DNA of 64,000 nucleotides from IMG/VR virus record IMGVR_UViG_3300010354_000064, positions 11,551 to 75,550 of that record. The stretch is one strand, 5' to 3'. A program made the position numbers and the translations under genes. The notes beneath the pieces are model-generated. The model made no database searches. It was not told the origin of the DNA and was given only the letters and a program-made list of their open reading frames with translations. The DNA comes from a virus. This document shows positions 22,818 through 53,857 of this stretch, piece after piece. Position 1 is the stretch's first letter. Each line of letters starts with the position of its first letter.

Positions 22818-22844
22818 TACGAGGTGGCCCCATCGAGAATCAAC
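22818..22844 (-). promoter_or_regulatory. class I promoter-like motif
   Basis: GTTGAT-N17-CGTA copy of the nine-member motif. Confidence 0.75.
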
Positions 22845-23943
22845 GTACCCAAACCTGACCTCGGTGGATTTTGCCGATGAGCGACACCCCCACCCCAAAC
22901 GCAGCGGCCACCGACGATTGCGTGGCCCCTCCGGCTAGCCGCGCACGAATCTCCGTGACCTTCTCGACCGTGAGCTTACCCGAACGTGCCGAGAGGCGGC
23001 GCGTCTGGTTCTGCTCGGCTTTCGTGGCCCAACGGCAGTTGGCAGGCCACCCACGCGCAAGGCAGTCCGCGCACTTGCCGCACGAGTAGTGCCCTCCGCG
23101 ATTTGCACGGGTGAGCGTGTACGTGGGGGCGGGCTTCACCCCCACGTCGGTCAAGAAATCCTCGAAAGACCCCCGCCAACGCTCGCACATCGTGATGCCC
23201 GAGCCCCCGTAATCCTCGTAGCGGCCGTGCTTCGGGTTGAAGCACCGAGTCTTGATGCTGACCCACGTCTTGTACTCAGGGCTACCCGTGCGTCCGTGGA
23301 CGTGGTTGCCGTGGTCGGACCCCCTCGGCATCGGGCGGCGGTTCGCACTCTGCTCGCTCTTCGTCGCCCACCGGACGTTCCCCGGCTCGTACCCACGCGA
23401 ACCGTCAATGCGGTCGAGGCTATGCTGCGGGGTCGGCTTCGGCCCAAGGTGATCAAAGAACGCCATGAAGTCGTCTACCCACCCCGCGTGGACGCCGATG
23501 CCGCGCCCACCCCAACCGGAGTAGTTGCTGCTCTTCGGGTTGAGGCAGCGGTCCTTCATAGAAATCCACGCGCGGTACTCCGGCGTATGGATGAGGCCAT
23601 GCTTGAAGTTGGTGGGCCATCCGGGGCGGGGCTCCTTCGAGGAAGGTGCCCCCGCACCTTGCGGCCGACGGTTCCGGTTCTGCTCGGTAGGAAGCGACCA
23701 CCGGACGTTGCCGGGTTCGTACCCCGCATCGTTGTCGATGCGGTCGAGGCTATGCTTCGGAGAGGGACGGGGGCCGACGTGGGCGAAGAACGCCTCGAAG
23801 TCCGCAGCCCACTCGGGGGCCAACGTAATCCCTCGGCCCCCGTAGTTCGGGTAGGCGAGGTGACGAGGGTTCAAGCATCGCTGCTTGATCTGCTGCCAAC
23901 ACTTGTACTCGGGAAGCTGGGATCGACCATGCTTGAGGTACAT
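22840..23943 (-). mobile_element. free-standing HNH homing endonuclease with three tandem HNH-type domains and C-terminal HTH
   Basis: Three repeats of PEY..W...K.RC.NP...[YW]GG.GI...[HSLDRID]...N[VC]RW; C-terminal TQSSVAAAFGV HTH. Confidence 0.8.
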
Positions 23944-24008: not shown

Positions 24009-24644
24009 TTAGAAACATTTATCCATACCTCTCCCTTGCCATTGTGGTAGACGCACCTCGCGAAGAATGTTGAAACGCTTGCTCGCGATGGCCGAAAACA
24101 CCTTCTGGTACGGGGAGTACTTGGCGTCTGCGCGGGCGAGGTCTTCGAGGCTCTTCACGGCGCGGAAGAAGCGATGCCGCACCCGCCCTTGCGTGAGGTT
24201 CAGCCGTGTGGCGACCTCGGACTGGCAGGTCGTCTCCCACATGCCGACGAGGATGTCCACGTCGATGGGGGCGAACACGTCGGCGAGGTCTTCGCGGATT
24301 TCATCCACGGTGATTTGCGGAATAGACAGCAGGAACTTGATGCGCTTGAGCCCCCGGTCGAGCCGATAGCTGATGGCTGCCTGGGTGACCTCGAAGATGG
24401 CTGCGATGTCCGCCTGCCTCTTGCGCTTGATGAAGTACAGGTAGATGAGGTCGGCTTCCCGACGCGGGATGCGGTCGAGCAAAGGCGCGATACGACTCTC
24501 GTAGTCGGCCTCCGCGAACAGCGTCTCGACGCCTTCCTCTTCGGCCTCGGAATCCAAGCTCGGCGTGACCAAGCGGTTCGCCAAAGCCATTGGGTCCATC
24601 GGAATCACGTACCCGGATGCCACCATCTTGTCCTCCCAACTCAC
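24009..24644 (-). CDS. protein with two tandem sigma70 region-4-like HTH domains
   Basis: IPRREADLIYLYF..RQADIAAIFEVTQAAISYRL and CQSEVATRLNLTQGRVRHRF. Confidence 0.7.
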   Translation of the reverse strand: MSWEDKMVASGYVIPMDPMALANRLVTPSLDSEAEEEGVETLFAEADYESRIAPLLDRIPRREADLIYLYFIKRKRQADIAAIFEVTQAAISYRLDRGLKRIKFLLSIPQITVDEIREDLADVFAPIDVDILVGMWETTCQSEVATRLNLTQGRVRHRFFRAVKSLEDLARADAKYSPYQKVFSAIASKRFNILREVRLPQWQGRGMDKCF

Positions 24645-26536
24645 GAGGCAGCCTCCGAGAAGAAGGCCGAGAGCACGCGCGACTTGTTCATTCCGATGTC
24701 ATCCAACGCGAGGCTGGACGCGCCCTGGTCGGCGTTCGGGGAGTGTAGCCGGAGGTCGAGGTTCGTCACGAGCGTCATGAGACGCACATTCAGGCGCACT
24801 TGCTTCTCAGCCGCCCGGATTTTCTCGCGGAGCGACTGCGAGAGCCCAGCAAGGTTCGAGACGAAGATACCATCGACGGTCCCGTAAAGGTTCAGCAGCT
24901 TGCTGGCAGTCTTGTTTCCGCAGCCCGGCGCACCGGGGATGTTGTCAGAGGTGTCCCCACCGAGCGCGCGGAGATGCACCATCCGCTCGGGGGCTACCCC
25001 GTACTCGGCCTGCACGACCTCGGGGGTGCAGAGCCTCTCCTTGCCAACACCGACCGCCGGGACGAGTACGTGCGTCGTGTCCGTCACGAGTTGCATGAAG
25101 TCTCGGTCGTTCGAGACGATGACGTTGTGCTGGTCGGCGAGCCGACCGCGCACCAACGAAGCCACCACGTCGTCCGCTTCTTCGCCTTCAGCGTGTGCTT
25201 GCCAAACGCCAAGAGAGGGGAGGTTCGCCTTGAGCCACTCGACCTCGAAGGTCACGCGCAGAGGGTTTCGATTCGCCTTGTAGTCGGCGAACAACTCCTT
25301 ACGGCGCGTCGAGAGGCTATCCCAGCAGACCCACACCTCGGCCTCGGGGTATCGCTTGCGGAGCGCCGAGAGACTGTTGAGGAACCCGACGATGGCCCCC
25401 GTGGGTCGTCCCTTGGCGTCGCGAAGGTCAGAAAGGCCCGGTGCCATCGAGCACCGAACCGCCATGTTCATGCCGTCGATGACGACGTTCTCGGTCACGG
25501 TGCTCCCTTTCATGCGGCGCTCAATAGACAGAACCGACCGTTCGATGTCAAGGAAGCGCAGCACCGCCGAGTGTAGCAGACTGAAAGATTGCGCCACCCC
25601 TTCGAGTGAACCCCAAGGTAGGTTGCGGTCAGTCTGCTCCACGACCCGATTCAACTGCCCCAGACGTTGCCCCCAATCGCGAAGCCTCTCCAAGTTAGAG
25701 TGCGTGTCGAGCACCGACCCCAAGCTGAGAGGGTGCTCGAAAGCGCGAAGGAAAGCATGTAGTTGCGCGCCTTGCCTCAACCACCGGGTGAGGTGATGGT
25801 ACCGGGTGTAGAGACGCTTCATCTCCACGAGAAGTTGAGGAGCCGACTGGAGCCGCATCTCGGCCTGGATGGTGCGACCGTTCGAGAGCCAGCGGTCGAT
25901 GCGTTGCACCTCGAAAAGGCGCTCCCGAAGCGGCTCGATGGAACGAGGCTCCCAACGAAGCAAAGGAAGAGCGGCATTGAACCAGCCACGCGCCTCACGA
26001 GCTTGCAGCACGAACGACGGGAGGGACACCTTGTTCAGCAGGTGAAGGAACGAGCGCGGCAACGTGATGAGGCTATCCTTGCTGCGAAGCTCGACGCTGA
26101 CCTGCACGGAATCCTGCTCGGGGATGTCCTCGATGACTACCGCCGTGAGATTCTTGTAGGGGCCGGAGTTGATGACCACGGTGTCGCCGACGCCGATACC
26201 CTGGTCTGAGTGCGCGCGAATCTGCCGCCGAAATTTGTCGATGTCACGGTCGGTCACGCACGCGAGACGACGCCCTCGGGAACCGGGGTCGCGAACGACC
26301 GCCTGGACGTAGCGAGTGTCTTCAAGCCGAAAGTACTTCTCATCAGGGTGGGCGCGCTTGATGAAGGCGTAACCATCAACGAGATAGTTGATGACCCTAT
26401 CCTCGCCGACTTGGGTCACCGAAGCAGGGACGAACACCTCGGCATCGCGGATGGTCGCCCGAATCGCCGACCGAATCAGCGCCGGGTCTTCTCCCTCGGC
26501 CATAGGCCCTAGCTCTAGGATGACCCACTCAGACAT
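24641..26536 (-). CDS. NusG-like (NGN+KOW) domain fused to 5'-3' exonuclease (PolI/FEN type)
   Basis: N-term EVFVP..LVDGYAFI and KOW GDTVVINSGPY; C-term VIDG.N, YKANR, EADD, SNDRD, GDTSDNIPG. Confidence 0.8.
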   Translation of the reverse strand: MSEWVILELGPMAEGEDPALIRSAIRATIRDAEVFVPASVTQVGEDRVINYLVDGYAFIKRAHPDEKYFRLEDTRYVQAVVRDPGSRGRRLACVTDRDIDKFRRQIRAHSDQGIGVGDTVVINSGPYKNLTAVVIEDIPEQDSVQVSVELRSKDSLITLPRSFLHLLNKVSLPSFVLQAREARGWFNAALPLLRWEPRSIEPLRERLFEVQRIDRWLSNGRTIQAEMRLQSAPQLLVEMKRLYTRYHHLTRWLRQGAQLHAFLRAFEHPLSLGSVLDTHSNLERLRDWGQRLGQLNRVVEQTDRNLPWGSLEGVAQSFSLLHSAVLRFLDIERSVLSIERRMKGSTVTENVVIDGMNMAVRCSMAPGLSDLRDAKGRPTGAIVGFLNSLSALRKRYPEAEVWVCWDSLSTRRKELFADYKANRNPLRVTFEVEWLKANLPSLGVWQAHAEGEEADDVVASLVRGRLADQHNVIVSNDRDFMQLVTDTTHVLVPAVGVGKERLCTPEVVQAEYGVAPERMVHLRALGGDTSDNIPGAPGCGNKTASKLLNLYGTVDGIFVSNLAGLSQSLREKIRAAEKQVRLNVRLMTLVTNLDLRLHSPNADQGASSLALDDIGMNKSRVLSAFFSEAAS

Positions 26537-26538
26537 CC

Positions 26539-27963
26539 CTACCCTCTCCCCGGCCAAGTAAGCTCGAACTCGCGTCGCCATTGTTCGGGGGTGAGGATTT
26601 GGTGCCCATCTGCTTCTTCGACCCCGGCAAAGTTGAGCGCCAGCGGCGCGTGGTCACGGCCCCTCGGCTTCTGACGAGCGACTGCCTGATGGTCGAAGTC
26701 CGTGAGCGCGGCGATGTCGCCAGAGCCGAGACTCCCGATGCCGTCGGTGCGTACCACACCTTTCCCATTCGGTGAAGGTTTCGATGCAGGAATAGGAGCC
26801 GGAACTGGGGCAGGAGCAGGAGCAGGCGGAGGTGCAGCCACCGCCGCCGGGGCAGGCGGAGGGGTCACTGGGGCGGCCGGAAGCGGAGCAGCCACGACCA
26901 GAACGGGCGCGGCGACAGGACCAGAAGTCGTCGGGATGCCCCCAGAGAGGCGGAGCACGTCGCAGAGGAGCGACACCTTCGAGGCGTACCGCTGACGAAG
27001 GAAGTGCTCGGCGAGCCGCACCACGTTGTCGCCGTAGGCGTCGTAAACCCGCTGCCCGAGGCTCTTGTCTACGTACACGAAGTCCGCGAACATCCCGTGC
27101 CTCAGCCGAAACGTGTTCATGGCCGCCTCGGCAAGGCCAGCCGACACGTCCTCGGGGCTCACCCGTTCGCAGAGGCCCTCGACAAGTTCGATGGCGCGCT
27201 TCGGGGTACCGAGCGCCAGAAGCACCTCGTAGTAGGTCGAGACGACAGAGAGGTGCAGGTACTCGCGCACGTTGTCGAGGTTGACCCGCCCCATCTGGGC
27301 AATCATCTCCAGCCGGTTCACGACATCGCGAACGTGGCCGCCCGAGTAGTCGATGACGGTGAGCACGCCATCGTCCTCGTGTTCAACCCCCTCGGCATCG
27401 AGGATGCGGTTCATCCGTTCGAGCACGTCCTCGCGCGTGATTTTGCGGATGGCGTACTCCTCACAGCGGGAGCGGATGGGGCCTCGGATTTTCTCGGGCT
27501 CGGTCGTGCAGAACACGCCGACCATCTTCTTCTCTTCGAGCGGCTTCAGGAGAACGTCCTGAGCATCCCGGCTCATCCGGTGCGCCTCGTCGAACACGTA
27601 GACGCGCTTCGCGGCATTGAAGACCGCGAACGGAAGGTCATCGACAATGGCCCGGATGTTCTCGATGGTGCCGCCCGATGCCGCATCCTGCTCGACGTAG
27701 GCCCCCGGCTGACCGTTGAGCACGTCGCGGCAGTTGTCGCACTCGTTGCAGGGCTCGGGGTCAGCCTTGTCGAGATTCTGGCAAAGCATGGCCCGCGCGT
27801 GGATACGGGCAAGGGTGGTCTTCCCCTGCCCGTGCCCACCCGCGAAGATGTAGGACACGTCGAGCGCGGTGCCTTTGGCGAGCCGCGCCTTGAGTAGCTG
27901 AACGGTACCCGATTGACCGAGCACGTCACCGAACTTGAGGGGGCGATAGCGGGTGTCCCACAC
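26539..27963 (-). CDS. dnaX: DNA polymerase III gamma/tau clamp-loader subunit
   Basis: YRP..F.DV.GQ, Walker A GQGKTT, PCNECDNC, DAAS, DEAH, IRSRC; Pro-rich tail. Confidence 0.92.
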   Translation of the reverse strand: MWDTRYRPLKFGDVLGQSGTVQLLKARLAKGTALDVSYIFAGGHGQGKTTLARIHARAMLCQNLDKADPEPCNECDNCRDVLNGQPGAYVEQDAASGGTIENIRAIVDDLPFAVFNAAKRVYVFDEAHRMSRDAQDVLLKPLEEKKMVGVFCTTEPEKIRGPIRSRCEEYAIRKITREDVLERMNRILDAEGVEHEDDGVLTVIDYSGGHVRDVVNRLEMIAQMGRVNLDNVREYLHLSVVSTYYEVLLALGTPKRAIELVEGLCERVSPEDVSAGLAEAAMNTFRLRHGMFADFVYVDKSLGQRVYDAYGDNVVRLAEHFLRQRYASKVSLLCDVLRLSGGIPTTSGPVAAPVLVVAAPLPAAPVTPPPAPAAVAAPPPAPAPAPVPAPIPASKPSPNGKGVVRTDGIGSLGSGDIAALTDFDHQAVARQKPRGRDHAPLALNFAGVEEADGHQILTPEQWRREFELTWPGRG

Positions 27964-35595: not shown

Positions 35596-36840
35596 TTACT
35601 CCGCGCCCGCGTCGGCATCCTCCACGACCTCTTCGGTGGGCGAGTCGGGGGAGTCGTCGAACTCCTGCCCCATGTCCGACAGGAGGCTATCCTCCTCGCC
35701 GATGTCCTCGTCCTTGACGACCGTGCTAGCAGCGCCGAGGGCAGCCGTCACCTTACCACAGACCTCGGTGTAGAGCTTGGTGTTCTCCATGAGGAGCGCA
35801 CGGAACTTGTCGCGGCCCTGGGTCCGGTGCTCGCCGTAGGCGTAGTAGGCACCCTCCTTCTTGACGATGCCCTGCGCGATACCCGTCTCGATGATGCTGA
35901 AGTAGTTGTCGAGCCCGTACCCGTACCGGATGAAGAAGTCGCCGCTCGACCCCTGGGTGCCGTCGAGCTTGTTCTTCACGACCTTCACCTGGGTCTTGTT
36001 GCCATACGGGAACTTCTTGGTCTTGCCCGACATCGGGTCTTTCTTCTCGATGATTTCCGAGCCCGTTCGGATGAACCGCAGACGGAGGCTCGCGTAGAAC
36101 TTGACGGCCTTGCCGCCCGCCGTGTTGGTATCGGGTCCATGCCCACCCGTCGCGATGACGGCGCGCTCCTGGTTCAGGAGGATGAGCGCCGTACCGAGCT
36201 TCGTGGGGTCCATCTTCTTCGTCTCCCCAGAGCCGGTCTTCGGGCAGGTGGCAAGCCACCCGCAAATCTTGGGGAGCGTCTCGGCCATCTTCTTCGCCAC
36301 CGCGCCGACCTTGGCGGTGTCGTCGAGCTTCTTCTCCAGTTCGTCCTTCGGCACCATCGCGGCCACCGAGTCCACGATGATGAGGTCAACCCCGGTGTTG
36401 ATGCCGACCCAAATCATCTTCAGGCCCTCCTCCATCGTGTCGGGTGCGAACACCATGAAGGAGTCGTCGTACTTGACGCCGATGCTCTGGGCATAGCCGT
36501 GGTGAATGGCGTGCTCGAAGTCCAGGAACATGACGGTGCCCCCAGCCTTCTGGACCTGCACAGCAGCCGAGAGCGCCACCGTCGTCTTACCGGAGGACTC
36601 CGGCCCGAAGATTTCGGTGACCTTGCGGCGCGGATAGCCGGGGCACGTCAGGCCCTTGCCATCCTTCGCGAGGCTGCCACCGATGAGCCCGTTGATGATG
36701 ATGCTGCCTGAATCGACGTGAGGGAGCGTCGAGAACGACGCCTCGACGGGCTTCTGCCCGGTCGCCTTGAGGATGAGAGCCCTCGCGGCGGTAAGAGCGT
36801 TCGGTGCGTTGTCAGATTTCTTGGCTTTGGCTGCACTCAT
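35596..36840 (-). CDS. recA: recombinase A
   Basis: EIFGPESSGKTT, DFEHA, IIVDSVAA, GGKAVKFYASLRL, KVVKNK. Confidence 0.95.
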   Translation of the reverse strand: MSAAKAKKSDNAPNALTAARALILKATGQKPVEASFSTLPHVDSGSIIINGLIGGSLAKDGKGLTCPGYPRRKVTEIFGPESSGKTTVALSAAVQVQKAGGTVMFLDFEHAIHHGYAQSIGVKYDDSFMVFAPDTMEEGLKMIWVGINTGVDLIIVDSVAAMVPKDELEKKLDDTAKVGAVAKKMAETLPKICGWLATCPKTGSGETKKMDPTKLGTALILLNQERAVIATGGHGPDTNTAGGKAVKFYASLRLRFIRTGSEIIEKKDPMSGKTKKFPYGNKTQVKVVKNKLDGTQGSSGDFFIRYGYGLDNYFSIIETGIAQGIVKKEGAYYAYGEHRTQGRDKFRALLMENTKLYTEVCGKVTAALGAASTVVKDEDIGEEDSLLSDMGQEFDDSPDSPTEEVVEDADAGAE

Positions 36841-39376: not shown

Positions 39377-39798
39377 TTGTCGTCCTCGATGACGTTGAGG
39401 AGCTTCGCGATGCCGTTGTCGTAGCGCGTCAGCACAGCCCGAAGCTCCTCCTGCGCCGACGAGGCTGCCATCATACCCCGCTTCACGGCGTCGTCGTAGG
39501 TCGCCGTGACGACGTGCTTGCCGAGCAGGAGCCGAGCGAGCTTCGCGTCGTCCGGGCTGAACCCGGAGGGCTCGTGGTGGTCGTTCGAGAGTTGGTTCAC
39601 CTCGGCCCCCGTACCACGGGATGCGGTGACGCTGTAGAACGCGCTCGTCTTGCGGCCGTCTCGGTTGCGCTCCTCGATGGAGTGCGAGACGGTGATTTTG
39701 TCGATGAGGAGCGCGCCGCTGACCGACTTCAGTCGGGCCTTCTGCTTCTCAGTCAGGTTCGACAGCGGGCCTTCGGGCTTCTTCTCGGGGGTGGTCAT
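39373..39798 (-). CDS. hypothetical protein
   Basis: ATG 10 nt after class II motif. Confidence 0.7.
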   Translation of the reverse strand: MTTPEKKPEGPLSNLTEKQKARLKSVSGALLIDKITVSHSIEERNRDGRKTSAFYSVTASRGTGAEVNQLSNDHHEPSGFSPDDAKLARLLLGKHVVTATYDDAVKRGMMAASSAQEELRAVLTRYDNGIAKLLNVIEDDK

Positions 39799-42013
39799 GC
39801 CCCTCTCTTACACCGGAGAGCGAGACAACCGCCTCGGAAACAGCGCGGCCGAACGCCGTGTTCCTCAGCACCACCTTGTCGTTGCCGATGGCCTTGTAGA
39901 CCGAGAAGGGGTCGCCGAGAACCCAGCACTTCTTCTTCGCGCGCGTGACCGCCGTGTAGAAGAGGTTGCGCTGAAGCATCCTCCCATGCCCCTTGACGAT
40001 GGGGAGGAGCACGTTGTCGAACTCGCTCCCCTGCGACTTGTGGACGGTGATGGCGTAGGCGAGCCGAAGAAGCTCAGGGGCGTCGGCCTTCGGGATGGCG
40101 ACCAGGGTATCGACCGCGCCCGGCCCGATGCCGTGGATGCGGACCATGAGGTTCTCGCGCTGAATCTCGACGAGCTTACCCATGTCGCCGTTGTAGATGC
40201 CGAGCTTGTAGTTGTTCTTGATGACCATGAGCCGGTCACCCACTCGGCTGTGGAAGTACCCGGCCTTCCACTCGGGTTGCCCCGTGCTGGGGTTCAGCGC
40301 CTCGCGCAGCCGGTCGTTCAGGTTGTTGACCCCGACGTAGCCGTCGTACTTGGGGGTAAGCACCTGGAAGTTCGCGTCGCGCGCCTTGAGCTTCAGGGCC
40401 ATCTTGACGATGAGTTCGGAGATTTGCTCCTCGTCCGTCAGGTGAACGAACTGGAACTCGCTCTCGGGCGGGCGCTTCTCCAGCGAGAGCGTCTCCCCTC
40501 GGTTGATGGTGTGGCTTGCGACGACGATTTCGCTCGTATGCTGCTGCCGGAAGATTTGGGTGAGCCGCACGTTGGGGACGTGCTCGGAGGCGAGAAGCTC
40601 ACGGAGGACGTTGCCCGGCCCGACGCTTGGAAGCTGGGCGTCGTCGCCGACGAGCACGAGGATGGTATCCGGGTGGAGGGCGTCGAGGACGCGGAAGAAT
40701 AGCTCTTGGTCCACCATCGACATCTCATCGACGATGACCGCATCCGTCTGGAACTTGTTAGCCCCGTGGTACTGCCAGCCGTCCCCGTCGTAACCGAACG
40801 CACGATGGATGGTGTACGCCTCGGTGCCCGTGACGCCAGCGAGTCGCTTGGCCGCGATGCCCGTGGGAGCCATGAGCGTGTGGGTCAGCTTCTTCTCACG
40901 GAAGAGGCGGACGAACGCGCGGACGAGGGTCGTCTTGCCGGTGCCGGGAAGGCCGGTGAGGACGAGCACTCGGTTCTCGATGAGCTTCTGGATGCCGTCC
41001 TTCTGGGCCGGAGAGAGAACGATGGGGTTGACCCGCTCGTACTCGGCCACGAAGGCGGCGAGGTCTACGTCGAGCTTCGAGGCGGTGATGAACTTCGCCA
41101 GCATGGCGGCGCTCTCACGCTCATGCTTCCAATGGACGGGGAGGTAGACCCCCGCCGACTTGTCGAGGTAAGCGTCCTTGCGTTCGACGAGCCGGTCCAC
41201 GGCGGCGAGAAGCGCGCGTGAGAGGTCGGGCACGTCGAACGCCTCCATGAACTCTCTCTGCATGAGGTCGTCCACGAGGGCGGGGAGGTCGCCGCGCCGG
41301 ATGTAGAGGTGCCCGTTCTGGGCCTCCTGCCGGAGCAGGTAGAGGACGGCCCCCTCGATGCGCTCGGGCGCGTCTCGACCGAAGCCCTGCTTGAAGGCGA
41401 GCTTGTCGGCGAGCGCGAACCCGAAACCATTGACCGAAACGAGCCGGTAGGGGTTCTCGGTGATGACCCGGATGGCGTTCGAGTCGAACGTCGCGTAGAC
41501 CGCCCGGATGGTGTTGGCATCGACCTGGAACTCGGTCAGAAAGACCGAGAGGTCGGCGAGGCTACGCGCGCGAGCCCACGCCATGATGGCCCGGTCGAGC
41601 CTATCTCTCGCCGGGTCGTCCGGGGAGAAGAGAGCCTGCACCTCGGCGGGCCGCTCCGAGAGAACCGCGAAGACTTCCGTCCCGTAGGTCTGAACGAGCT
41701 TGTCCACGACCACAGGGTCGGTGAAGTCCGAGACGCACTCGGAAAGGAACCGCTCGATGTCGCGCGGCGTGCGAGCGTACGGGTGCCAGGTATGGGGGAT
41801 GAACTGCTTGCCGAACTTCGGGTGTGCGCCCCATTGACCGCTGAACGCAACCGTCACCCCCACGGTGACCTGAAGCAAACCGAACAGCGGCCCGGCGACC
41901 GTGACGACCTTCTCTTCGACGGAGGGTTGGGCCTCGTCAAGCGCAACCGTGAAGACGCAGAAGTCGTCTCCCTTGTGCCTGACGGCGATGACTCGGCCTC
42001 GGATGATTGCCAC
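39749..42013 (-). CDS. recD2: RecD2-like SF1B helicase
   Basis: GLPGTGKTT, APTGIAA, DEMSM, GDDAQL, FRQ, YAITVHKSQGSEF, YTAVTRA; N-terminal HhH region. Confidence 0.93.
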   Translation of the reverse strand: MAIIRGRVIAVRHKGDDFCVFTVALDEAQPSVEEKVVTVAGPLFGLLQVTVGVTVAFSGQWGAHPKFGKQFIPHTWHPYARTPRDIERFLSECVSDFTDPVVVDKLVQTYGTEVFAVLSERPAEVQALFSPDDPARDRLDRAIMAWARARSLADLSVFLTEFQVDANTIRAVYATFDSNAIRVITENPYRLVSVNGFGFALADKLAFKQGFGRDAPERIEGAVLYLLRQEAQNGHLYIRRGDLPALVDDLMQREFMEAFDVPDLSRALLAAVDRLVERKDAYLDKSAGVYLPVHWKHERESAAMLAKFITASKLDVDLAAFVAEYERVNPIVLSPAQKDGIQKLIENRVLVLTGLPGTGKTTLVRAFVRLFREKKLTHTLMAPTGIAAKRLAGVTGTEAYTIHRAFGYDGDGWQYHGANKFQTDAVIVDEMSMVDQELFFRVLDALHPDTILVLVGDDAQLPSVGPGNVLRELLASEHVPNVRLTQIFRQQHTSEIVVASHTINRGETLSLEKRPPESEFQFVHLTDEEQISELIVKMALKLKARDANFQVLTPKYDGYVGVNNLNDRLREALNPSTGQPEWKAGYFHSRVGDRLMVIKNNYKLGIYNGDMGKLVEIQRENLMVRIHGIGPGAVDTLVAIPKADAPELLRLAYAITVHKSQGSEFDNVLLPIVKGHGRMLQRNLFYTAVTRAKKKCWVLGDPFSVYKAIGNDKVVLRNTAFGRAVSEAVVSLSGVREGHDHPREEARRPAVEPD

Positions 42014-42014
42014 G

Positions 42015-43931
42015 CTATGCCTTTGCGAGTTCGATGAACTGCTCCTCGGAGAGGAGCTTGGTGCCGTGCTTACGCGCTGCCTGCGCTTTCGTCGAGGACG
42101 AGTTGGGGTCAGCGATGACGAGATAGGTGAGCCCCTTCGCGACGCTCGCCTTCACGACTCCTCCCTGCTGCACGACGAGCCCTTCGAGGTCGGCACGCTT
42201 GCGTTGCATCGAGCCCGTGAAGCAGAACGACTGCCCGGTGAGCCTCCCTTGTACCCGAGCCTTGATGTGAACTCCAGCAGCGAGAAGGTCCGCGACGACG
42301 TTCTCACCAGCCCCATGCAGCCAGGTGTGGAGAGCCTCGGCCTTTACGGGGCCGAGCCCTGCGATGGAACGGAGGGTGATGAGGTCCACAGCGCGGAGCT
42401 TCTCCCAGGTGTCGTGCCCGGCGTCCGTGACCATCTGGATGGTCTGGGTCGCACAGAGGGGAATCGACAGCGCGCCGAGCAGGACTTCAAGGGGCTGCTC
42501 ACTCTTCTCTCGGAGGAGTACCAGGAGCTTGTCGGCCCCGTGCTCCGTGATGCGCTCGACCTCGGCGAGCGAGGGGATGGTGAGCCGGAAGAGGTCGGCG
42601 GGGCTCTTGACCTTGCCTGACTCGACAAGGCGCTCGATGAGCGTCTCGCCCCACTCCTTCACGTCGAGGGCGGCGATGAACCGCTTGATGCGACCGACAA
42701 GTTGCGCGGGACACTCCGCCGTGTTGGGGCACACGAGGTACTCCCCGTCCTGGGCGACCTTGTGCTGACAGGAGGGGCAGAAGAGGGGGCATTTCACAGG
42801 CTGGTTGGACCTCGCGACGAGCGCGGTGACGCGAGGGATGACATCGTTGGCCCGAGCCACGAGGATGCGTGCGCCCGGTGAGAGCCCGAGGTCGGTGACG
42901 TACTTGAAGTTGTAGAGGCTTGCCTGCATGACCTTCGCGCCCACGAGTTCCACGGGGTCGAAGGTGCCGACAGGCGTGAGGCGGCCCGTGCCGCCCACCT
43001 GCCAGTCAATCTGCCGAAGGGTCGTCTCCTGCGCCTGCGACGGAAACTTGAAAGCCACGGCAGCGCGAGGGCGACCGTCCTTGTCGCCGAACGACCGCTG
43101 CCGAGCGATACCGTTGACCCGAACGACGAGCCCGTCGATGTCGTAGTCGAGCGCGTCCCGGTGGCCCTGCTGGTAGTGGAGCCAAACCTCGATGGGGTTG
43201 ACCACGACGCACCAATCGGGGAGCATGAACCCCTGCTGGCCGAGCCATTGAAGCTGCTCGTCCTCGGCCTGGAAGTCCCGCCCCTCGACGACTTGATAGG
43301 GGATGACTGTCAGGTGCTCGCACCCCTTGCCGTCGAGCCTTTTGCTGATGCCCGAGGCTGCGTTGCGGGGGTTCGCGTAGTCGGGGAAGTGTGCCCGGTG
43401 GGCTGACTTGAGCAGGACGATTTCGCCGCGAATCGACCCCGTGAAGCCCTCGACCTCGGGCTGGACGTTGTTCATGCGGAGGACGTTCCGGGTGATGTCC
43501 TCGCCCGTGATGCCGTCGCCGCGCGTGATAGCCTGGACGAGCTTGCCCGCCTCGTACCGCAGATGGATGCTGATGCCGTCGAGCTTCTCGGTCACGAAGA
43601 GGGGCGGGATGCCGCGCGTCGGGGGCAGCGTGTTGTAGGTGCGCGCCCACTCGCGAAGCTCCTCGGGGGTGTTCACCTTGTCGAGGCTGCCCATGACGAA
43701 TCCGTGCCGAGCTTTCTTCCACTCGGAAGTGTCGGGCACGGGTGCGCCGATAGCCGTGACGGCAGGCGACGCTGGGCGGAGAGCGCGTAGCTCATCTACC
43801 CAGGCGTCGTACTGCTCATCGCTAACGGTCGGGGTACCGTTGTAGTAGGCGTCCCGAGCAGCCTGGACTTTCGCTTCCAGAGAGGCAACGGGAGCCGCGT
43901 CGGCTTCTTCGAGGAGGGCCATGAGGTCCAT
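42015..43931 (-). CDS. ligA: NAD-dependent DNA ligase
   Basis: EKLDG, TRGDG, RGE, DGLVV, AFKF, Zn finger, HhH and BRCT (KARKHG) domains. Confidence 0.95.
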   Translation of the reverse strand: MDLMALLEEADAAPVASLEAKVQAARDAYYNGTPTVSDEQYDAWVDELRALRPASPAVTAIGAPVPDTSEWKKARHGFVMGSLDKVNTPEELREWARTYNTLPPTRGIPPLFVTEKLDGISIHLRYEAGKLVQAITRGDGITGEDITRNVLRMNNVQPEVEGFTGSIRGEIVLLKSAHRAHFPDYANPRNAASGISKRLDGKGCEHLTVIPYQVVEGRDFQAEDEQLQWLGQQGFMLPDWCVVVNPIEVWLHYQQGHRDALDYDIDGLVVRVNGIARQRSFGDKDGRPRAAVAFKFPSQAQETTLRQIDWQVGGTGRLTPVGTFDPVELVGAKVMQASLYNFKYVTDLGLSPGARILVARANDVIPRVTALVARSNQPVKCPLFCPSCQHKVAQDGEYLVCPNTAECPAQLVGRIKRFIAALDVKEWGETLIERLVESGKVKSPADLFRLTIPSLAEVERITEHGADKLLVLLREKSEQPLEVLLGALSIPLCATQTIQMVTDAGHDTWEKLRAVDLITLRSIAGLGPVKAEALHTWLHGAGENVVADLLAAGVHIKARVQGRLTGQSFCFTGSMQRKRADLEGLVVQQGGVVKASVAKGLTYLVIADPNSSSTKAQAARKHGTKLLSEEQFIELAKA

Positions 43932-43957
43932 GACCCTCCTCTACACCGAACGTCCCG

Positions 43958-44206
43958 CTAGTTGCGGGACTTTGCGTCGGGTACGTCTTCCATCTTCAAC
44001 TCCCCCGCCTCGACCATCTCGGCGAGCCGATTGATGGTCGAGAACGGGGCGACGACGAACCGGACCTCTTCACCCTTGTAGCGTTCGAGCACCGCCTGAA
44101 CGTCCACGTAGTTGAAGCCCCCCTCGGGCCGCTCGCACCGAAGCACGAGGCGGCCCGTCATGGGGTCAAGTTCGACGATGCCTTCCGCGACGAGTCCGAG
44201 GTCCAT
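43958..44206 (-). CDS. hypothetical protein
   Basis: 82-aa ORF starting 1 nt after the RNR stop. Confidence 0.6.
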   Translation of the reverse strand: MDLGLVAEGIVELDPMTGRLVLRCERPEGGFNYVDVQAVLERYKGEEVRFVVAPFSTINRLAEMVEAGELKMEDVPDAKSRN

Positions 44207-44207
44207 G

Positions 44208-46511
44208 CTAGAACTTGACCTCACAGTAGCCGCCAGCGCAAGCCACTTCGCCCGCGAGGTTCGTCTCATCCCCCTCCTCGACGATGGCCGTGTAGTCCAC
44301 CGGCTTGTAGCTCTCCAGGATGGCGTTCCAGCGCGCCTCGTCGGCGGGCGTGGTGACCTCCTCATTCGGGGCGAAAGCGTAGTCCTTGTCGCCGGAAGCA
44401 GCCAGCAGGCTGACACCCGTGAAGTACTCGCGGTTCTCCCAGAGGTAGTCCGCCACCTTGTCCCACTCCTCGGGCCGCACCGTGACGGTGTTGCTGACGT
44501 TGTGGTTGAGCCCCGGCGAGTGCTTGGGGTCCGACGTGCCGGGAAGCACCCAGTTCTGCTGAGTGGACTTCACCATGTCGAGGAACTGGATAGCCCCCAG
44601 GTCGGCTCGCACCGTTGCGTTCGCAGGGGCCTCGACCGGAAACTCGATGACGTACTTGCCGTCCGGCTTCCTGACGCACATGTGCGGGTTGACCGCCCGG
44701 AACGCCTGGAAGACCGTTTCGAGTTCGTCGGCCGTGACGCGACGGATGTACCGCTTCGCGTGGTGAGCGTGGTGCCCGGAACCGACACAACCAAGTTCGA
44801 GGCTCGTGGTGCCAGAGGGCTTCACGCAGGTCGTACGAGCGGCGGGCTTGACCCCAATCTTCGCAGCGTACTCGGCGTTCCACGCCTTGATTTTGCCCGC
44901 CACTTCCCGCTGGTACTCGGGGTTGCAGGCGATGTGGGGCGCATCGAGCATCCCGGTCATACCGATGCCGAGCAGGGCCTCGCGCTCGGCGAGCGTCTCG
45001 CTAATCCACCCGAGGTAGGGCATCCGGGTGTACCCTGCCTGGAGCGTGCCGATGAGCGTGGCGGCCTTGGCGGCCTCCTCGAAATCCGCGAGGCTCGTGA
45101 GCTTGGCCGCGTTGATTTCGCAGAGGTTGCAGAAAGCCCAGCCGGTGTAGGTCTGCCCGACGGTCACCTTGACTCCACGCGCAGCGAGCTTCGTCTGCTC
45201 CTCCTCCGTGATGGTGAGCAGAGGGTTGAGCCCGATTTCGCAGCAGGGATTGGTGCCGTAGTCGTAGTTCGCGGTGAAGTAGAAGCCGGGCTCTCCCCAT
45301 TGGCGCGTCATCTGGAAGATGCGCTTGAACTGCTTTTTCTTCACCTCGTCACGCTTCAGAACGACCGAGTTGTTCGCGTTCGCGAAGTAGGGGTCCGTCT
45401 CCCACCAGTTGCCGGTCTTCGCAAAGAGCATCTCGGAGTCGTCGAGGCTGAAGAGGCAAATCATCGCCGAGCGACGGATACCGCCCGAGAGAACGGCGTC
45501 AGCCGCGTGGCACATGATGCGGTGGCACTCGATGGGCCGGAGCTTGCGACCCTGAGCCTTCGAGAGCACACCTCGGATGCGCTCCAGGGAATCCTTCAGC
45601 TTGAGGTGTCCGGGAGCCTTGCCGCCCGACGTGTGAAGCGGAGCACCCGCGTCGCGAATCAGGTGGTAGGACAACTCCAGGTTCACGCCATCGAGGTAGC
45701 TCTGGATGAGCGCCTTCAGCGCATCGGCCCATCCCTCGATGGTGTCCTCGACGACGTGGTGGCGGACCTTCTTGGGGTCCACGTAGCCGAGGCCGGGTAG
45801 CTTCTCAACGTGGTCAAACTGCACCGAGTAGCCGACCCCGCAACCGGAGAGCAGGAGGAACAGCGCCTCCGAGAAGACCTCGGGGCGGTCTACCAAGGAA
45901 AACGAGCAGTTGTAGATGCGGTTGTTGTTCGAGAGGATGGCGTCACCTCCGAACTGCATCGACCGCATCGAGGGCAGGACGCGCTTGGCGCGCACGAGGT
46001 CGAAGGCCCACTTGATTTCCTCGGCGAGGGCCTCGTACTGGTTGAGGTGCATCACCTCAACGCGCTCGACCGTCTCCTCGTAGACCTCTCGGCGGCGCAG
46101 ACGAGAGACGTACCGGGCATACTTGCCCGCGTGGATGTAGTCGCTGATGGCCTTGGGGTCGGGAGCCTTCGAGGTGCGCCCACCACGAGCCTCAGCGCGC
46201 TTGTGCCGGAAGAGGATGAACGCCTTGGCGACCTCGAACTGCCCGTGCTTCATGAGGGCCGTCTCGACCGCATCCTGCACACGCTCCACGTCGATAACGT
46301 CCTCGGTGAGCGTGTCGATGACGGTGCCGATGACCCTTGTGATGGCGCGTTCGTCGAGAGTCTTGCACTCCTGCCAGGCGCGGCCGATAGCCCGCCTCAG
46401 CTTTTCGACATCGAACGGCTGAAAGGTGTTGCCATCGCGCTTGAGGATTTTCTTACCCTTGGCTTTGGTCGGTGTGTCTGCGCGGTTGTCGGTTGCGTTC
46501 GATGAGAGCAT
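44208..46511 (-). CDS. nrdJ: class II (B12-dependent) ribonucleotide reductase with ATP cone
   Basis: N-terminal ATP cone (KRDG..FD..K), YNCS, TNPCCEI, VKPSGT, C-terminal CAGGYC. Confidence 0.9.
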   Translation of the reverse strand: MLSSNATDNRADTPTKAKGKKILKRDGNTFQPFDVEKLRRAIGRAWQECKTLDERAITRVIGTVIDTLTEDVIDVERVQDAVETALMKHGQFEVAKAFILFRHKRAEARGGRTSKAPDPKAISDYIHAGKYARYVSRLRRREVYEETVERVEVMHLNQYEALAEEIKWAFDLVRAKRVLPSMRSMQFGGDAILSNNNRIYNCSFSLVDRPEVFSEALFLLLSGCGVGYSVQFDHVEKLPGLGYVDPKKVRHHVVEDTIEGWADALKALIQSYLDGVNLELSYHLIRDAGAPLHTSGGKAPGHLKLKDSLERIRGVLSKAQGRKLRPIECHRIMCHAADAVLSGGIRRSAMICLFSLDDSEMLFAKTGNWWETDPYFANANNSVVLKRDEVKKKQFKRIFQMTRQWGEPGFYFTANYDYGTNPCCEIGLNPLLTITEEEQTKLAARGVKVTVGQTYTGWAFCNLCEINAAKLTSLADFEEAAKAATLIGTLQAGYTRMPYLGWISETLAEREALLGIGMTGMLDAPHIACNPEYQREVAGKIKAWNAEYAAKIGVKPAARTTCVKPSGTTSLELGCVGSGHHAHHAKRYIRRVTADELETVFQAFRAVNPHMCVRKPDGKYVIEFPVEAPANATVRADLGAIQFLDMVKSTQQNWVLPGTSDPKHSPGLNHNVSNTVTVRPEEWDKVADYLWENREYFTGVSLLAASGDKDYAFAPNEEVTTPADEARWNAILESYKPVDYTAIVEEGDETNLAGEVACAGGYCEVKF

Positions 46512-51220: not shown

Positions 51221-53265
<2,045 letters not shown>

Positions 53266-53365: not shown

Positions 53366-53767
53366 ATGACGGAGAGCAGCGACAAGGTGAAGCAGGCAGT
53401 AGCGTTAGTCACGGCCGTCACGGCGCTCGTAACAGCAGGCACGTCGCTCGTGAAGGCGCTCGACAAGAGCGTCGAGCGTGTGAGCTACGAGACTCTGAGC
53501 GAGAAGGTCGTCGAGCTTCAGAAAGAAGTCTGGGCGCTGAAGCAGGGGGCAACGGACTACATGCCATCGGAACCCGTCGATGCCGGGCTCTGCACGGCCG
53601 ACTACGACCAGGACGGGCTTCTGGACACGACCAAGGTCTTGCCCGCGTTGCCCGTGTGGCCCTCTTCGAGCGCGTCGGCCCCGCCGCAACCAGAACCCTC
53701 GGTCAGCGTAACGCCGCCGACGCCGCCACCCTCGTGGGAAGCCATCGAGTTGAAGGCGCAGCGGTAG
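53366..53767 (+). CDS. hypothetical protein with hydrophobic N-terminal helix and coiled coil
   Basis: AVALVTAVTALVTAGTSLV segment, Pro-rich tail. Confidence 0.6.
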   Translation: MTESSDKVKQAVALVTAVTALVTAGTSLVKALDKSVERVSYETLSEKVVELQKEVWALKQGATDYMPSEPVDAGLCTADYDQDGLLDTTKVLPALPVWPSSSASAPPQPEPSVSVTPPTPPPSWEAIELKAQR

Positions 53768-53769
53768 GG

Positions 53770-53840
53770 CTGGGGGACAAGGACTCGAACCTTGATTGAC
53801 GGGGCCAGAACCCGCCGTCCTGCCGTTAGACGATCCCCCA
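53770..53840 (-). tRNA. tRNA-Gln(CUG), CCA not encoded
   Basis: Acceptor TGGGGGA/TCCCCCA, anticodon arm GCGGG-TTCTGGC-CCCGT, T arm CAAGG-TTCGAGT-CCTTG, discriminator G. Confidence 0.93.
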
Positions 53841-53857
53841 AAGGGACGAGGACGACC

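What the first reader, a model, noticed from the sequence alone, without database searches (positions are those of the whole stretch)
24641..26536. NusG-like transcription factor fused to a 5'-3' (flap/RNase H-like) exonuclease
Seen: NGN and KOW domains, a ~200-aa helical linker and an intact PolI-type 5' nuclease in one frame. A possible internal start (SD AAAGGGAG, GTG ~25498) precedes the nuclease. I know of no described NusG-FEN fusion. Inference: tethering a 5' nuclease to elongating RNAP could remove R-loops, process primers or couple transcription to replication.
Basis: partly seen in the sequence, partly recalled or inferred. Interest (0 to 1): 0.7.

Follow-up and report, generated by a model that had tools for sequence, protein, structure and literature searches.

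The report
Huge-phage NusG-like factor fused to flap nuclease
An uncultured freshwater huge phage joins a copy of NusG, the factor that rides on RNA polymerase, to its only DNA flap nuclease in one protein; well over a hundred relatives do the same, pointing to an undescribed and testable link between phage transcription and DNA replication.

Summary
The gene lies on the minus strand, 26536 to 24641, and encodes 631 aa. It has four parts:
- an NGN domain;
- a KOW domain;
- a complete Pol I-type 5' nuclease with every catalytic carboxylate.

The NusG assignment is weak for the single sequence but firm by family profile (E 6e-10 to NusG structures) and by fold (Z 10-11).

The fusion is no artefact. 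More than 120 full-length homologues (41-95% identity) occur in phage contigs of 73-529 kb, and two independent freshwater assemblies cross the junction without indels.

The gene always sits between the clamp loader and a sigma-region-4 protein. It is the only 5' nuclease in five related genomes, which also lack RNase H and a recognisable RNA polymerase.

About one lineage in ten splits the gene exactly at the repeat/nuclease border, and the halves stay adjacent. One relative fuses the same NusG-like module to a sigma factor.

Best reading: a flap nuclease tethered to host RNA polymerase. Binding and activity are untested.

I found no paper on it. This scan has already reported the same fusion on at least six related genomes. 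It is a new variant of known kinds, of moderately high interest.

The parts
24641..26536 (-). Whole NusG-like/flap-nuclease gene (631 aa plus TGA stop)
   Evidence: The frame is open. The start is supported by an SD and by the homologue alignment. More than 120 full-length homologues exist. Independent contigs cross the gene without indels.
26207..26533 (-). NGN domain (residues 17-125 of the 646-aa reading P0001)
   Evidence: VIA Z 10.2, rmsd 3.1 A over 97 of 101 residues of RfaH NGN. Foldseek matches full-length NusG at 5e-10. The profile scores 5.8e-10 to T. maritima NusG. Invariant residues lie in strand 1 (EWVVLEL), strand 3 (YLVDGYAF) and helix 3.
26033..26191 (-). KOW domain (residues 131-183)
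   Evidence: Pfam KOW 1.7e-4. VIA Z 9.3 to the M. tuberculosis NusG C-terminal domain. The KOW-type motif VGDTVxIxSGPY is conserved.
25508..26026 (-). Helical repeat region (residues 186-358): one short helix plus four tandem helices of about 37 aa, each with a conserved Trp
   Evidence: AF2 helices 189-357. Pairwise hhalign between repeats gives 78-98% probability. Sequence is variable but length is mostly 174-192 aa. No match in Pfam, PDB or the Atlas.
25496..25510 (-). Candidate internal start: AAAGGGAG, then 4 nt, then in-frame GTG (residue 362)
   Evidence: Sequence. Met, Val or Leu occupies this column in 32 of 59 homologues. An SD-like core precedes a junction start codon in 11 of 17 genes, against 9.6% for other in-frame start codons. 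The nuclease ORF of the L014 split form starts at this column, and in L099 within a few residues of it.
24998..25486 (-). 5' nuclease catalytic domain (PF02739, residues 366-528)
   Evidence: Pfam 1.3e-31. Invariant D369, D421, E468, D470, D471, D492, D494 and the YKxxR arch motif. These sit in the conserved VDG, FD, EADD and DxD motifs shared with the Taq and M. smegmatis Pol I 5' nucleases.
24743..24997 (-). H3TH / SAM-fold DNA-binding domain of the nuclease (PF01367, residues 529-613)
   Evidence: Pfam 5.2e-21. The GDxSDNIPG motif with invariant D543 and D546 is present.
24656..24676 (-). Conserved C-terminal hydrophobic motif [ILV]-L-x-A-F-F-G; candidate sliding-clamp-binding (PIP-like) motif, untested
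   Evidence: Column counts: L 46/59, A 40/59, F 45/59, F 45/59. The clamp-binding role is inference only.
24009..24626 (-). Downstream partner gene: 205-aa protein with a sigma-70 region-4 HTH and a second HTH; starts 14 nt after the nuclease stop, behind GGGAGGA
   Evidence: Pfam Sigma70_r4 6e-13. Its best PDB sequence matches are the sigma-4 domains of SigF and FliA. It lies directly downstream in 31 of 31 loci. It is fused in frame to the nuclease in P0035 and P0130.
26539..27963 (-). Upstream gene: clamp-loader subunit (DNA pol III delta'/tau-like); its stop lies 2 nt before the NusG-nuclease ATG
   Evidence: Pfam DNA_pol3_delta2 7.5e-24 and the PHROG clamp-loader family 3.9e-53. The synteny is conserved.

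Best explanation
This is one bifunctional protein of a huge freshwater phage (estimated genome about 470 kb).

Proposed mechanism:
- The N-terminal NGN-KOW module is a true NusG-family domain. As in all NusG/Spt5 proteins, it most likely docks on the beta' clamp helices of the host RNA polymerase. These phages show no recognisable polymerase of their own.
- Four helical repeats follow. They form a rigid spacer or docking platform.
- The C-terminal Pol I-type 5' nuclease is catalytically intact and is the phage's only flap nuclease.

The protein would therefore place the enzyme that removes RNA primers and 5' flaps next to transcribing polymerase. There it could cut RNA 5' flaps and RNA:DNA hybrids (R-loops, or transcripts used as primers) on a genome that is transcribed and replicated at the same time. 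It probably works with the sigma-4 protein encoded immediately downstream. Some nuclease may also be made alone from an internal start for ordinary Okazaki-fragment maturation.

What is shown and what is inferred:
- Shown: the domain identities, intact catalytic motifs, conservation of the fusion, the synteny, and its being the sole 5' nuclease.
- Inferred: RNA polymerase binding, the substrate, and cooperation with the sigma-4 protein.
For: Domains:
- The nuclease domains score above Pfam cut-offs and all carboxylates are invariant.
- The NusG fold and profile matches are firm.
- The N-domain is under the same constraint as the nuclease.
- Its invariant residues fall in strands 1 and 3 and helix 3. 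These are the elements that form the beta' clamp-helix patch of E. coli NusG (PMC4642336).

The fusion is real and kept:
- More than 120 full-length homologues exist.
- 28 of 31 loci are fused.
- Contigs from two other studies cross the junction with 0 gaps.

Link to transcription:
- The sigma-region-4 gene is directly downstream in 31 of 31 loci.
- It is fused in frame in P0035 and P0130.
- Relative P0185 carries Sigma70_r2, Sigma70_r4 and the same NusG-like module at 45% identity.
- More distant relatives are free-standing NusG-like proteins of 160-200 aa, some above Pfam's NusG cut-off.

Link to replication:
- The gene sits in a block with a putative clamp (weak PHROG match), primase and clamp loader.
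- In five related genomes of 231-529 kb, one of them 100% complete, it is the only PF02739 match.
- Those genomes have no RNase H and one PolA elsewhere that carries no PF02739 5'-nuclease match.
- No Rpb1-type RNA polymerase match was found.

When the gene splits, the halves stay adjacent and overlapping.
Against: - No direct evidence exists for RNA polymerase binding or for any substrate. The host is unknown.
- The single-sequence Pfam NusG and KOW scores are below cut-off.
- By the HMM alignment to T. maritima NusG, the loop Phe that NusG uses to contact S10 and Rho (its role recalled from memory) is an invariant Arg here. The KOW partner therefore differs from that of housekeeping NusG.
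- Recurrent natural splits, needing at least about 4 events on a quick tree, show that covalent tethering is dispensable.
- A likely internal start would give free nuclease.
- Divergent phage RNA polymerases, such as the phiKZ type, could escape the Pfam search. The T7-type search had a silent control.
Confidence: 0.5

Rival explanations
1. Fusion without mechanistic coupling. The N-terminal half is a phage NusG-type antiterminator or elongation factor. The C-terminal half is the ordinary Okazaki-fragment flap nuclease. They are joined only because neighbouring, co-expressed genes merged, and free nuclease from the internal start does the replication work.
For: - Natural split forms are cut exactly at the repeat/nuclease border in at least 3 loci and about 10 representative clusters.
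- A start codon lies at the border in 32 of 59 homologues, with an SD-like core enriched there.
- The protein is the sole 5' nuclease, so it must serve replication anyway.
Against: - The fused state is kept in about 85-90% of lineages across 41-95% identity.
- The halves never separate in the genome, even when split.
- The border start codon is missing in about 45% of homologues, so those must use the full-length protein for replication.
Confidence: 0.2
2. Replication-coupled transcription, working like the T4 late system. The nuclease domain, through flap or nick binding and perhaps a C-terminal clamp-binding motif, anchors on replicating DNA or the sliding clamp. The NGN domain holds the beta' clamp helices of RNA polymerase and the neighbouring sigma-4 protein holds the beta flap. 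This would parallel T4 gp55 and gp33 acting with the gp45 clamp.
For: - The gene lies directly between the clamp loader and the sigma-4 gene, with structure-like genes following.
- The related genomes have sigma region 4 but no sigma region 2 over the cut-off.
- The C-terminal [ILV]LxAFFG motif is conserved.
- The T4 parallel itself is from established knowledge, recalled and not tested here.
Against: - NGN domains are not known to open promoters.
- The C-terminal motif lies in a confidently folded helix of the model, so it may be structural.
- Clamp binding was not tested.
Confidence: 0.13
3. Torpedo-like termination or RNA processing. The polymerase-bound 5'-to-3' nuclease degrades the nascent transcript, or the RNA of an R-loop, from its 5' end and dislodges the polymerase. 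This would be a covalent analogue of Spt5 with Rat1/Xrn2 in eukaryotes and Spt5 with FttA in archaea.
For: - Solved complexes pair the NusG homologue Spt5 with a 5'-3' nuclease on the polymerase: FttA (PMC11616081; 9bct) and Rat1/Rai1 (8qsz).
- The architecture here would give the same geometry.
Against: - Pol I-type 5' nucleases act on flaps and duplex ends rather than processively on single-stranded RNA (from memory of the family).
- No RNA-specific feature was seen.
- The gene sits in the replication module.
Confidence: 0.1
4. The NusG-like module has been re-used for something other than RNA polymerase, for example binding the replisome, single-stranded nucleic acid or the ribosome. It would then simply be a targeting domain of a replication nuclease.
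For: - The KOW loop residue used by NusG for S10 and Rho is replaced by Arg.
- KOW/Tudor-like barrels bind many ligands (the spread of hits).
- No binding data exist.
Against: - Both NGN and KOW are retained in NusG order.
- The conserved NGN elements match the polymerase-binding patch.
- The same module is fused to a sigma factor in P0185.
- It is always next to a sigma-4 gene.
Confidence: 0.07

Closest known systems
Bacterial NusG and its specialised paralogues (RfaH, LoaP, UpxY); archaeal/eukaryotic Spt5
   Same: It has an NGN domain followed by a KOW barrel. It shares the hallmark strand-1 Trp and a strand-3 motif (YLVDGYAF here; the NusG counterpart as I recall it is PGY-hydrophobic). Fold matches reach Z 10-11 and the profile E-value is 6e-10.
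   Different: - It carries about 460 extra residues: four helical repeats and a nuclease.
- It scores below the Pfam and NCBIfam cut-offs for NusG, RfaH, LoaP and UpxY.
- The KOW loop Phe is replaced by an invariant Arg.
- It is phage-encoded.
- The 2021 NusG review has no hit for 'nuclease' or 'fused' (PMC7819879).
Pol I-type 5'-3' exonucleases / flap endonucleases (Pol I N-terminal domain, M. smegmatis FenA, E. coli ExoIX/Xni, T5 D15, T4 RNase H)
   Same: It has both Pfam domains, all catalytic carboxylates, the arch YKxxR and the H3TH GDxSDNIPG motif. The best fold match is M. smegmatis FenA at 1.8e-18, TM 0.78. As in T5 and T7 (from memory), the nuclease is separate from the phage PolA.
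   Different: The nuclease lies at the C-terminus of a transcription-factor-like protein. It is neither free-standing nor at the N-terminus of a polymerase.
Spt5-Rat1/Xrn2 (eukaryotic torpedo) and Spt5-FttA (archaeal termination) complexes
   Same: A NusG-family factor on the polymerase is paired with a 5'-3' nuclease (PMC11616081; PDB 9bct and 8qsz).
   Different: Those pairs are non-covalent, use unrelated or only distantly related nucleases and act on RNA. Here the link is covalent and the nuclease is a DNA-replication type. The resemblance is functional analogy only.
T4 late transcription machinery (gp55, gp33, gp45 clamp)
   Same: Small phage factors occupy the beta' clamp helices and the beta flap and couple transcription to the replication clamp (established knowledge, from memory). 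Here an NGN domain and a sigma-4 protein are encoded beside the clamp loader.
   Different: No sequence relationship was tested or found. It is an analogy only.

Membership tests
NusG/Spt5 family | NGN alpha/beta domain | tested here: met
   VIA Z 10.2, rmsd 3.1 A, 97 of 101 residues of RfaH NGN; Z 11.0 to T. maritima NusG. In the Foldseek list nearly every row, and all of the best-scoring ones, is NusG, RfaH or Spt5.
NusG/Spt5 family | KOW beta-barrel directly after the NGN domain | tested here: met
   Pfam KOW 1.7e-4, 21.7 vs 22.3 bits. VIA Z 9.3 to the M. tuberculosis NusG C-terminal domain. The profile alignment spans NGN plus KOW of T. maritima NusG at E 5.8e-10.
NusG/Spt5 family | Score above the curated family cut-offs (Pfam PF02357; TIGR00922) | tested here: not met
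   The single sequence gives PF02357 14.9 vs 22.2 bits and TIGR00922 27.2 vs 135.7 bits. More distant free-standing relatives (P0213, P0245, P0203) do pass PF02357. It is therefore a divergent branch of the superfamily, not an orthologue of housekeeping NusG.
NusG/Spt5 family | Binding to the RNA polymerase beta' clamp helices and beta gate loop | not testable with these tools
   Support is indirect only. The invariant residues lie in strands 1 and 3 and helix 3, the patch mapped in E. coli NusG (PMC4642336). The host polymerase is unknown.
Housekeeping NusG (Rho/S10 coupling) | KOW loop Phe (E. coli F165, in the IFGR loop) that contacts S10 and Rho | tested here: not met
   The HMM alignment puts an invariant Arg (R166 of P0001) opposite the Phe of T. 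maritima NusG. The role of the Phe is recalled from the literature.
RfaH / LoaP / UpxY specialised paralogues | Match to the NCBIfam models | tested here: not met
   RfaH 14.2 vs 144.5 bits, LoaP 16.6 vs 125, UpxY 20.9 vs 100.
Pol I-type 5'-3' exonuclease / FEN | PF02739 plus PF01367 above the gathering scores | tested here: met
   109.9 bits (cut-off 34.3) and 75.4 bits (cut-off 40).
Pol I-type 5'-3' exonuclease / FEN | Metal-binding carboxylates, arch Lys/Arg and the H3TH motif | tested here: met
   D369, D421, E468, D470, D471, D492, D494, D543, D546, Y434, K435 and R438 are invariant in 59 homologues. They sit in the conserved VDG, FD, EADD, DxD, GDxSD and YKxxR motifs shared with Taq polymerase in the printed alignment.
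Pol I-type 5'-3' exonuclease / FEN | Structure-specific 5' nuclease activity | not testable with these tools
   This needs an enzyme assay.

The most novel reading that the evidence does not exclude
The NusG-nuclease protein and the neighbouring double sigma-4 protein together form a nuclease complex that rides on RNA polymerase. It would hold both the beta' clamp helices and the beta flap of host polymerase. It would then do one of two things:
- couple late transcription to replication forks through the nuclease's grip on flaps and the clamp, as a new solution to the problem T4 solves with gp55, gp33 and gp45; or
- end transcription and clear R-loops by chewing RNA 5' to 3', as a bacterial-virus counterpart of the Spt5-Rat1 and Spt5-FttA torpedo.
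Probability: 0.2. Interest if true: 0.85.

Novelty: new variant of a known kind. Interest (0 to 1): 0.62.

Why it matters
NusG/Spt5 is the only transcription factor conserved in all life. It works by recruiting partners to RNA polymerase through its KOW domain. A natural, widely conserved covalent fusion to a nuclease would be a new way of using it.

It would also give a simple handle on how very large phages manage replication and transcription on the same heavily transcribed template: R-loops, transcript priming and collisions.

The protein is small enough to express and has clear domain borders, with natural split versions as guides. The predictions are direct: polymerase binding, competition with NusG, and flap or RNA:DNA hybrid cleavage.

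Tried and rejected
- Complex prediction of the full protein with the sigma-4 protein gave no verdict (score 0.11, mark 0.32). This is no evidence either way.
The contexts of most 'NGN-KOW-repeat only' proteins therefore could not be read. Three split loci were reached through IMG/VR instead.
- The search for related loci found no locus of their own for P0167, P0185 or P0135.
- The protein Atlas gave nothing for the repeat region, and neither fold search listed a match for it. That does not show a new fold.
- The sigma-70 promoter and terminator scan of 21-33 kb was at background level.
- The INPHARED phage collection holds no record covering 80% or more of the protein. Only nuclease-domain matches of about 30-37% identity appeared.
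- GTDB genomes hold the fusion only on MAG scraps of about 2.8-3.3 kb, probably mis-binned phage, so no host could be named. The nearest cellular nuclease domains are Myxococcota/'Deltaproteobacteria' PolA at 39-40%, too weak to name a host.
- The metatranscriptome run X13 holds two small contigs over the NGN region. Presence in an RNA library does not show transcription.
- Seven literature searches found no description.
- A sequencing frameshift as the cause of the split forms is unlikely. They occur in several samples, always at the same border, and one cluster has five members from different assemblies.
Full report
WHAT IS THERE

The window is part of a 75.5-kb IMG/VR virus record that CheckV rates 16% complete, implying a genome of roughly 470 kb. 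G+C content is about 64%. Almost all genes from 1 to about 59 kb lie on the minus strand.

The reported interval is a minus-strand gene.
- The open frame runs 26581..24641.
- The real start is ATG 26536, behind GGAGAGGG and 2 nt after the stop of the upstream clamp-loader gene.
- All homologues begin at that residue with MxEWV.
- The product is 631 aa. Residue numbers below follow the 646-aa reading P0001.

DOMAINS

The 5' nuclease (residues 366-613):
- Pfam places 5_3_exonuc_N at 366-528 (1.3e-31) and 5_3_exonuc at 529-613 (5.2e-21), both far above their cut-offs.
- NCBIfam aligns residues 366-617 to the first 256 residues of DNA polymerase I.
- In the alignment to Taq and M. smegmatis Pol I, the protein shares the conserved VDG, FD, EADD, DxD and GDxSDN motifs and the arch motif YKxxR.
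- D369, D421, E468, D470, D471, D492, D494, D543 and D546 are invariant in 59 homologues.
- The best fold match is M. smegmatis FenA (Foldseek 1.8e-18, TM 0.78 on the target).

The N-terminal NusG-like part (residues 17-183):
- It is weak for the single sequence: KOW 1.7e-4, Pfam NusG 0.04, TIGR00922 2.9e-6, and a PHROG 'transcription antiterminator' family at 2e-6.
- A profile of 15 homologues hits T. maritima NusG at 5.8e-10 across NGN plus KOW, and also hits other NusG, Spt5 and uL24 KOW domains.
- An AF2 model of residues 16-362 (pLDDT 88.6) gives Foldseek rows that are almost all NusG, RfaH or Spt5, the best at 5e-10.
- The Foldseek-independent search gives Z 11.0 (T. maritima NusG), 10.9 (M. 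jannaschii Spt5), 10.2 (RfaH NGN, rmsd 3.1 A over 97 of 101 residues) and 9.3 (M. tuberculosis NusG KOW).
- This N-domain is as conserved as the nuclease, with mean column identity about 0.7-0.78, against about 0.33 in the middle region.
- Its invariant residues lie in strand 1 (EWVVLEL), strand 3 (YLVDGYAF) and helix 3. A published NMR study maps these elements as the beta' clamp-helix patch of E. coli NusG (PMC4642336).
- One difference stands out. By the HMM alignment, the KOW loop Phe that NusG uses for S10 and Rho (its role recalled from memory) is an invariant Arg here.

The middle region (residues 186-358):
- It is not a featureless linker. It forms five long helices.
- Four of them are tandem repeats of about 37 aa, each with a conserved Trp. 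Pairwise hhalign probabilities are 78-98%.
- Its length is mostly 174-192 aa, with a few shorter or longer versions.
- Nothing in Pfam, PDB or the Atlas matched it.

IS THE FUSION REAL AND CONSERVED?

The word-indexed search returned 269 relatives. The best 120 were nearly all 560-690 aa, covered 93-100% of the query and shared 41-95% identity. JGI names many of them '5'-3' exonuclease/transcription antitermination factor NusG'.

IMG/VR holds full-length copies on contigs of 73-529 kb.

Contigs from two other studies cross the domain borders without any indel:
- freshwater 2022: 24055-25876 with 4 substitutions;
- lake water 2025: 24171-26101 with 57 substitutions.

In GTDB species genomes the fusion occurs only on MAG scraps of about 2.8-3.3 kb. 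The INPHARED phage collection has no full-length match. It therefore looks restricted to an uncultured clade of huge freshwater phages.

CONTEXT

In 31 loci the order is fixed: a putative clamp (weak PHROG match), ATPase, unknown gene, primase, metallopeptidase, clamp loader, NusG-nuclease, sigma-4 protein, an optional HNH endonuclease, then two unknown genes.

The sigma-4 protein:
- It is 205 aa and starts 14 nt after the nuclease stop, behind GGGAGGA.
- It has a clear sigma-70 region 4 (Pfam 6e-13). Its best PDB sequence matches are the sigma-4 domains of SigF and FliA.
- It also has a second HTH.
- It is more conserved than the fusion protein, at 62-70% identity.

Five related genomes of 231-529 kb, one rated 100% complete, were searched:

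| Search | Result |
|---|---|
| 5' nuclease (PF02739) | the fusion gene is the only match |
| RNase H | none |
| Pol III alpha | none |
| PolA | one, elsewhere, with no 5'-nuclease match |
| Rpb1-type RNA polymerase | none |
| Sigma region 2 | none over the cut-off |
| T7-type RNA polymerase | uninformative; the control was silent |

VARIANTS THAT BEAR ON FUNCTION

(a) Split genes. In L014, L084 and L099 the gene is two overlapping ORFs in different frames, with unchanged synteny. The first ORF holds NGN, KOW and the repeats (298-380 aa). The second holds the nuclease (294-349 aa as listed).
- The representative library holds about 10 such 'NGN-KOW-repeat only' proteins. They end exactly at the end of the repeats.
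- Most are on contigs of 15-143 kb. One cluster has five members from several assemblies.
- A quick tree of the N-domains needs at least 4 changes for this state, nested among fused forms (quick method, midpoint root).
- So the repeats belong with the NusG half, and covalent linkage is frequent but not obligatory.

(b) Further fusion. P0035 and P0130 (840 aa, from JGI and ENA) read through into a complete sigma-4 protein.

(c) Sigma fusion. P0185 (541 aa) has Sigma70_r2, Sigma70_r4 and the same NusG-like module at 45% identity, E 1.7e-28. It nests inside the family.

(d) Free-standing relatives. More distant relatives are NusG-like proteins of 160-200 aa, some of which pass Pfam's NusG cut-off.

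INTERNAL START

- At that alignment column 17 homologues have Met, 9 Val and 6 Leu, out of 59.
- In 11 of 17 genes analysed, a junction start codon has an SD-like core 4-12 nt upstream. The rate for other in-frame start codons is 9.6%.
- One subclade keeps ATG at this position without a scored SD.
- In the L014 split form the nuclease ORF starts at this column. In L099 it starts within a few residues of it.

A free nuclease isoform is therefore plausible in many members but cannot be universal. It is unproven here.

INTERPRETATION

The nuclease half is almost certainly the phage's primer- and flap-removal enzyme. The N-terminal half is a genuine, strongly constrained NusG-family module. Its relatives are fused to, or encoded beside, sigma-factor parts. 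These phages appear to depend on host RNA polymerase.

The simplest mechanism is a flap nuclease carried on elongating host polymerase, probably together with the sigma-4 protein. It would act on RNA 5' flaps, R-loops or transcript primers where transcription and replication share a template.

Four rivals remain:
- a fusion of convenience with no coupling;
- a T4-like coupling of late transcription to the clamp and replication forks;
- a torpedo-like terminator analogous to Spt5-Rat1 and Spt5-FttA (PMC11616081; PDB 9bct and 8qsz);
- re-use of the NusG fold for a non-polymerase partner.

None could be excluded with the tools at hand.

NOVELTY

Seven full-text searches found no description. A 2021 review of NusG diversity has no hit for 'nuclease' or 'fused'. 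Automatic JGI annotation does name both domains.

This scan has reported the same fusion on at least six other genomes, with the same conclusions. My results were obtained independently up to that point and agree with them.

The finding is a new variant of two known kinds, not a new kind of system.

Noticed in passing
window 24009-24626 (-): A 205-aa protein with a sigma-70 region-4 HTH, a second HTH and a strongly conserved C-terminal tail (FNILREVxLPQWxxRGGD). There is no region 2. It is more conserved than the NusG-nuclease gene. The related genomes show no sigma region 2 over the cut-off, so it may be a beta-flap-binding co-factor rather than a complete sigma.
   Followed up: partly
window 22840-23943 (-): An HNH homing-type endonuclease (367 aa, PHROG E 2e-97) sits between the sigma-4 gene and the next conserved gene. 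It is present only here and in L007 among the loci compared, so it is probably a mobile insertion.
   Followed up: partly
L006:5335-8034: The clamp-loader homologue matches in two pieces (residues 1-48 and 41-472) about 1.3 kb apart, next to the Walker A region. This could be an intein or another insertion.
   Followed up: no
protein P0185 (JGI, 18.3-kb contig; no locus fetched): A 541-aa protein combines Sigma70_r2, Sigma70_r4 and a C-terminal NusG-like module related to this family. I have not seen a sigma-NusG fusion described.
   Followed up: partly
related genomes G001-G005 (e.g. G002:C1:318760-319977): Each huge-phage genome has one family-A DNA polymerase in an open frame of 950-1030 aa, far from the replication block. 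It has no 5' nuclease domain match.
   Followed up: partly
window 39749-46511 and 35596-36840 (-): A RecD2-like helicase, an NAD-dependent DNA ligase with BRCT, an ATP-cone protein (probably ribonucleotide reductase) and a RecA homologue lie on the same strand. The phage carries a near-complete replication and repair kit.
   Followed up: no
window 51221-52870 (-) and 53767-53841 (-): A GroEL-type chaperonin gene (Cpn60_TCP1, 1e-62) and a tRNA-Gln (CTG).
   Followed up: no
L011:524-1937: The clamp-loader homologue matches in two overlapping pieces in different frames, suggesting a frameshift or an assembly error.
   Followed up: no
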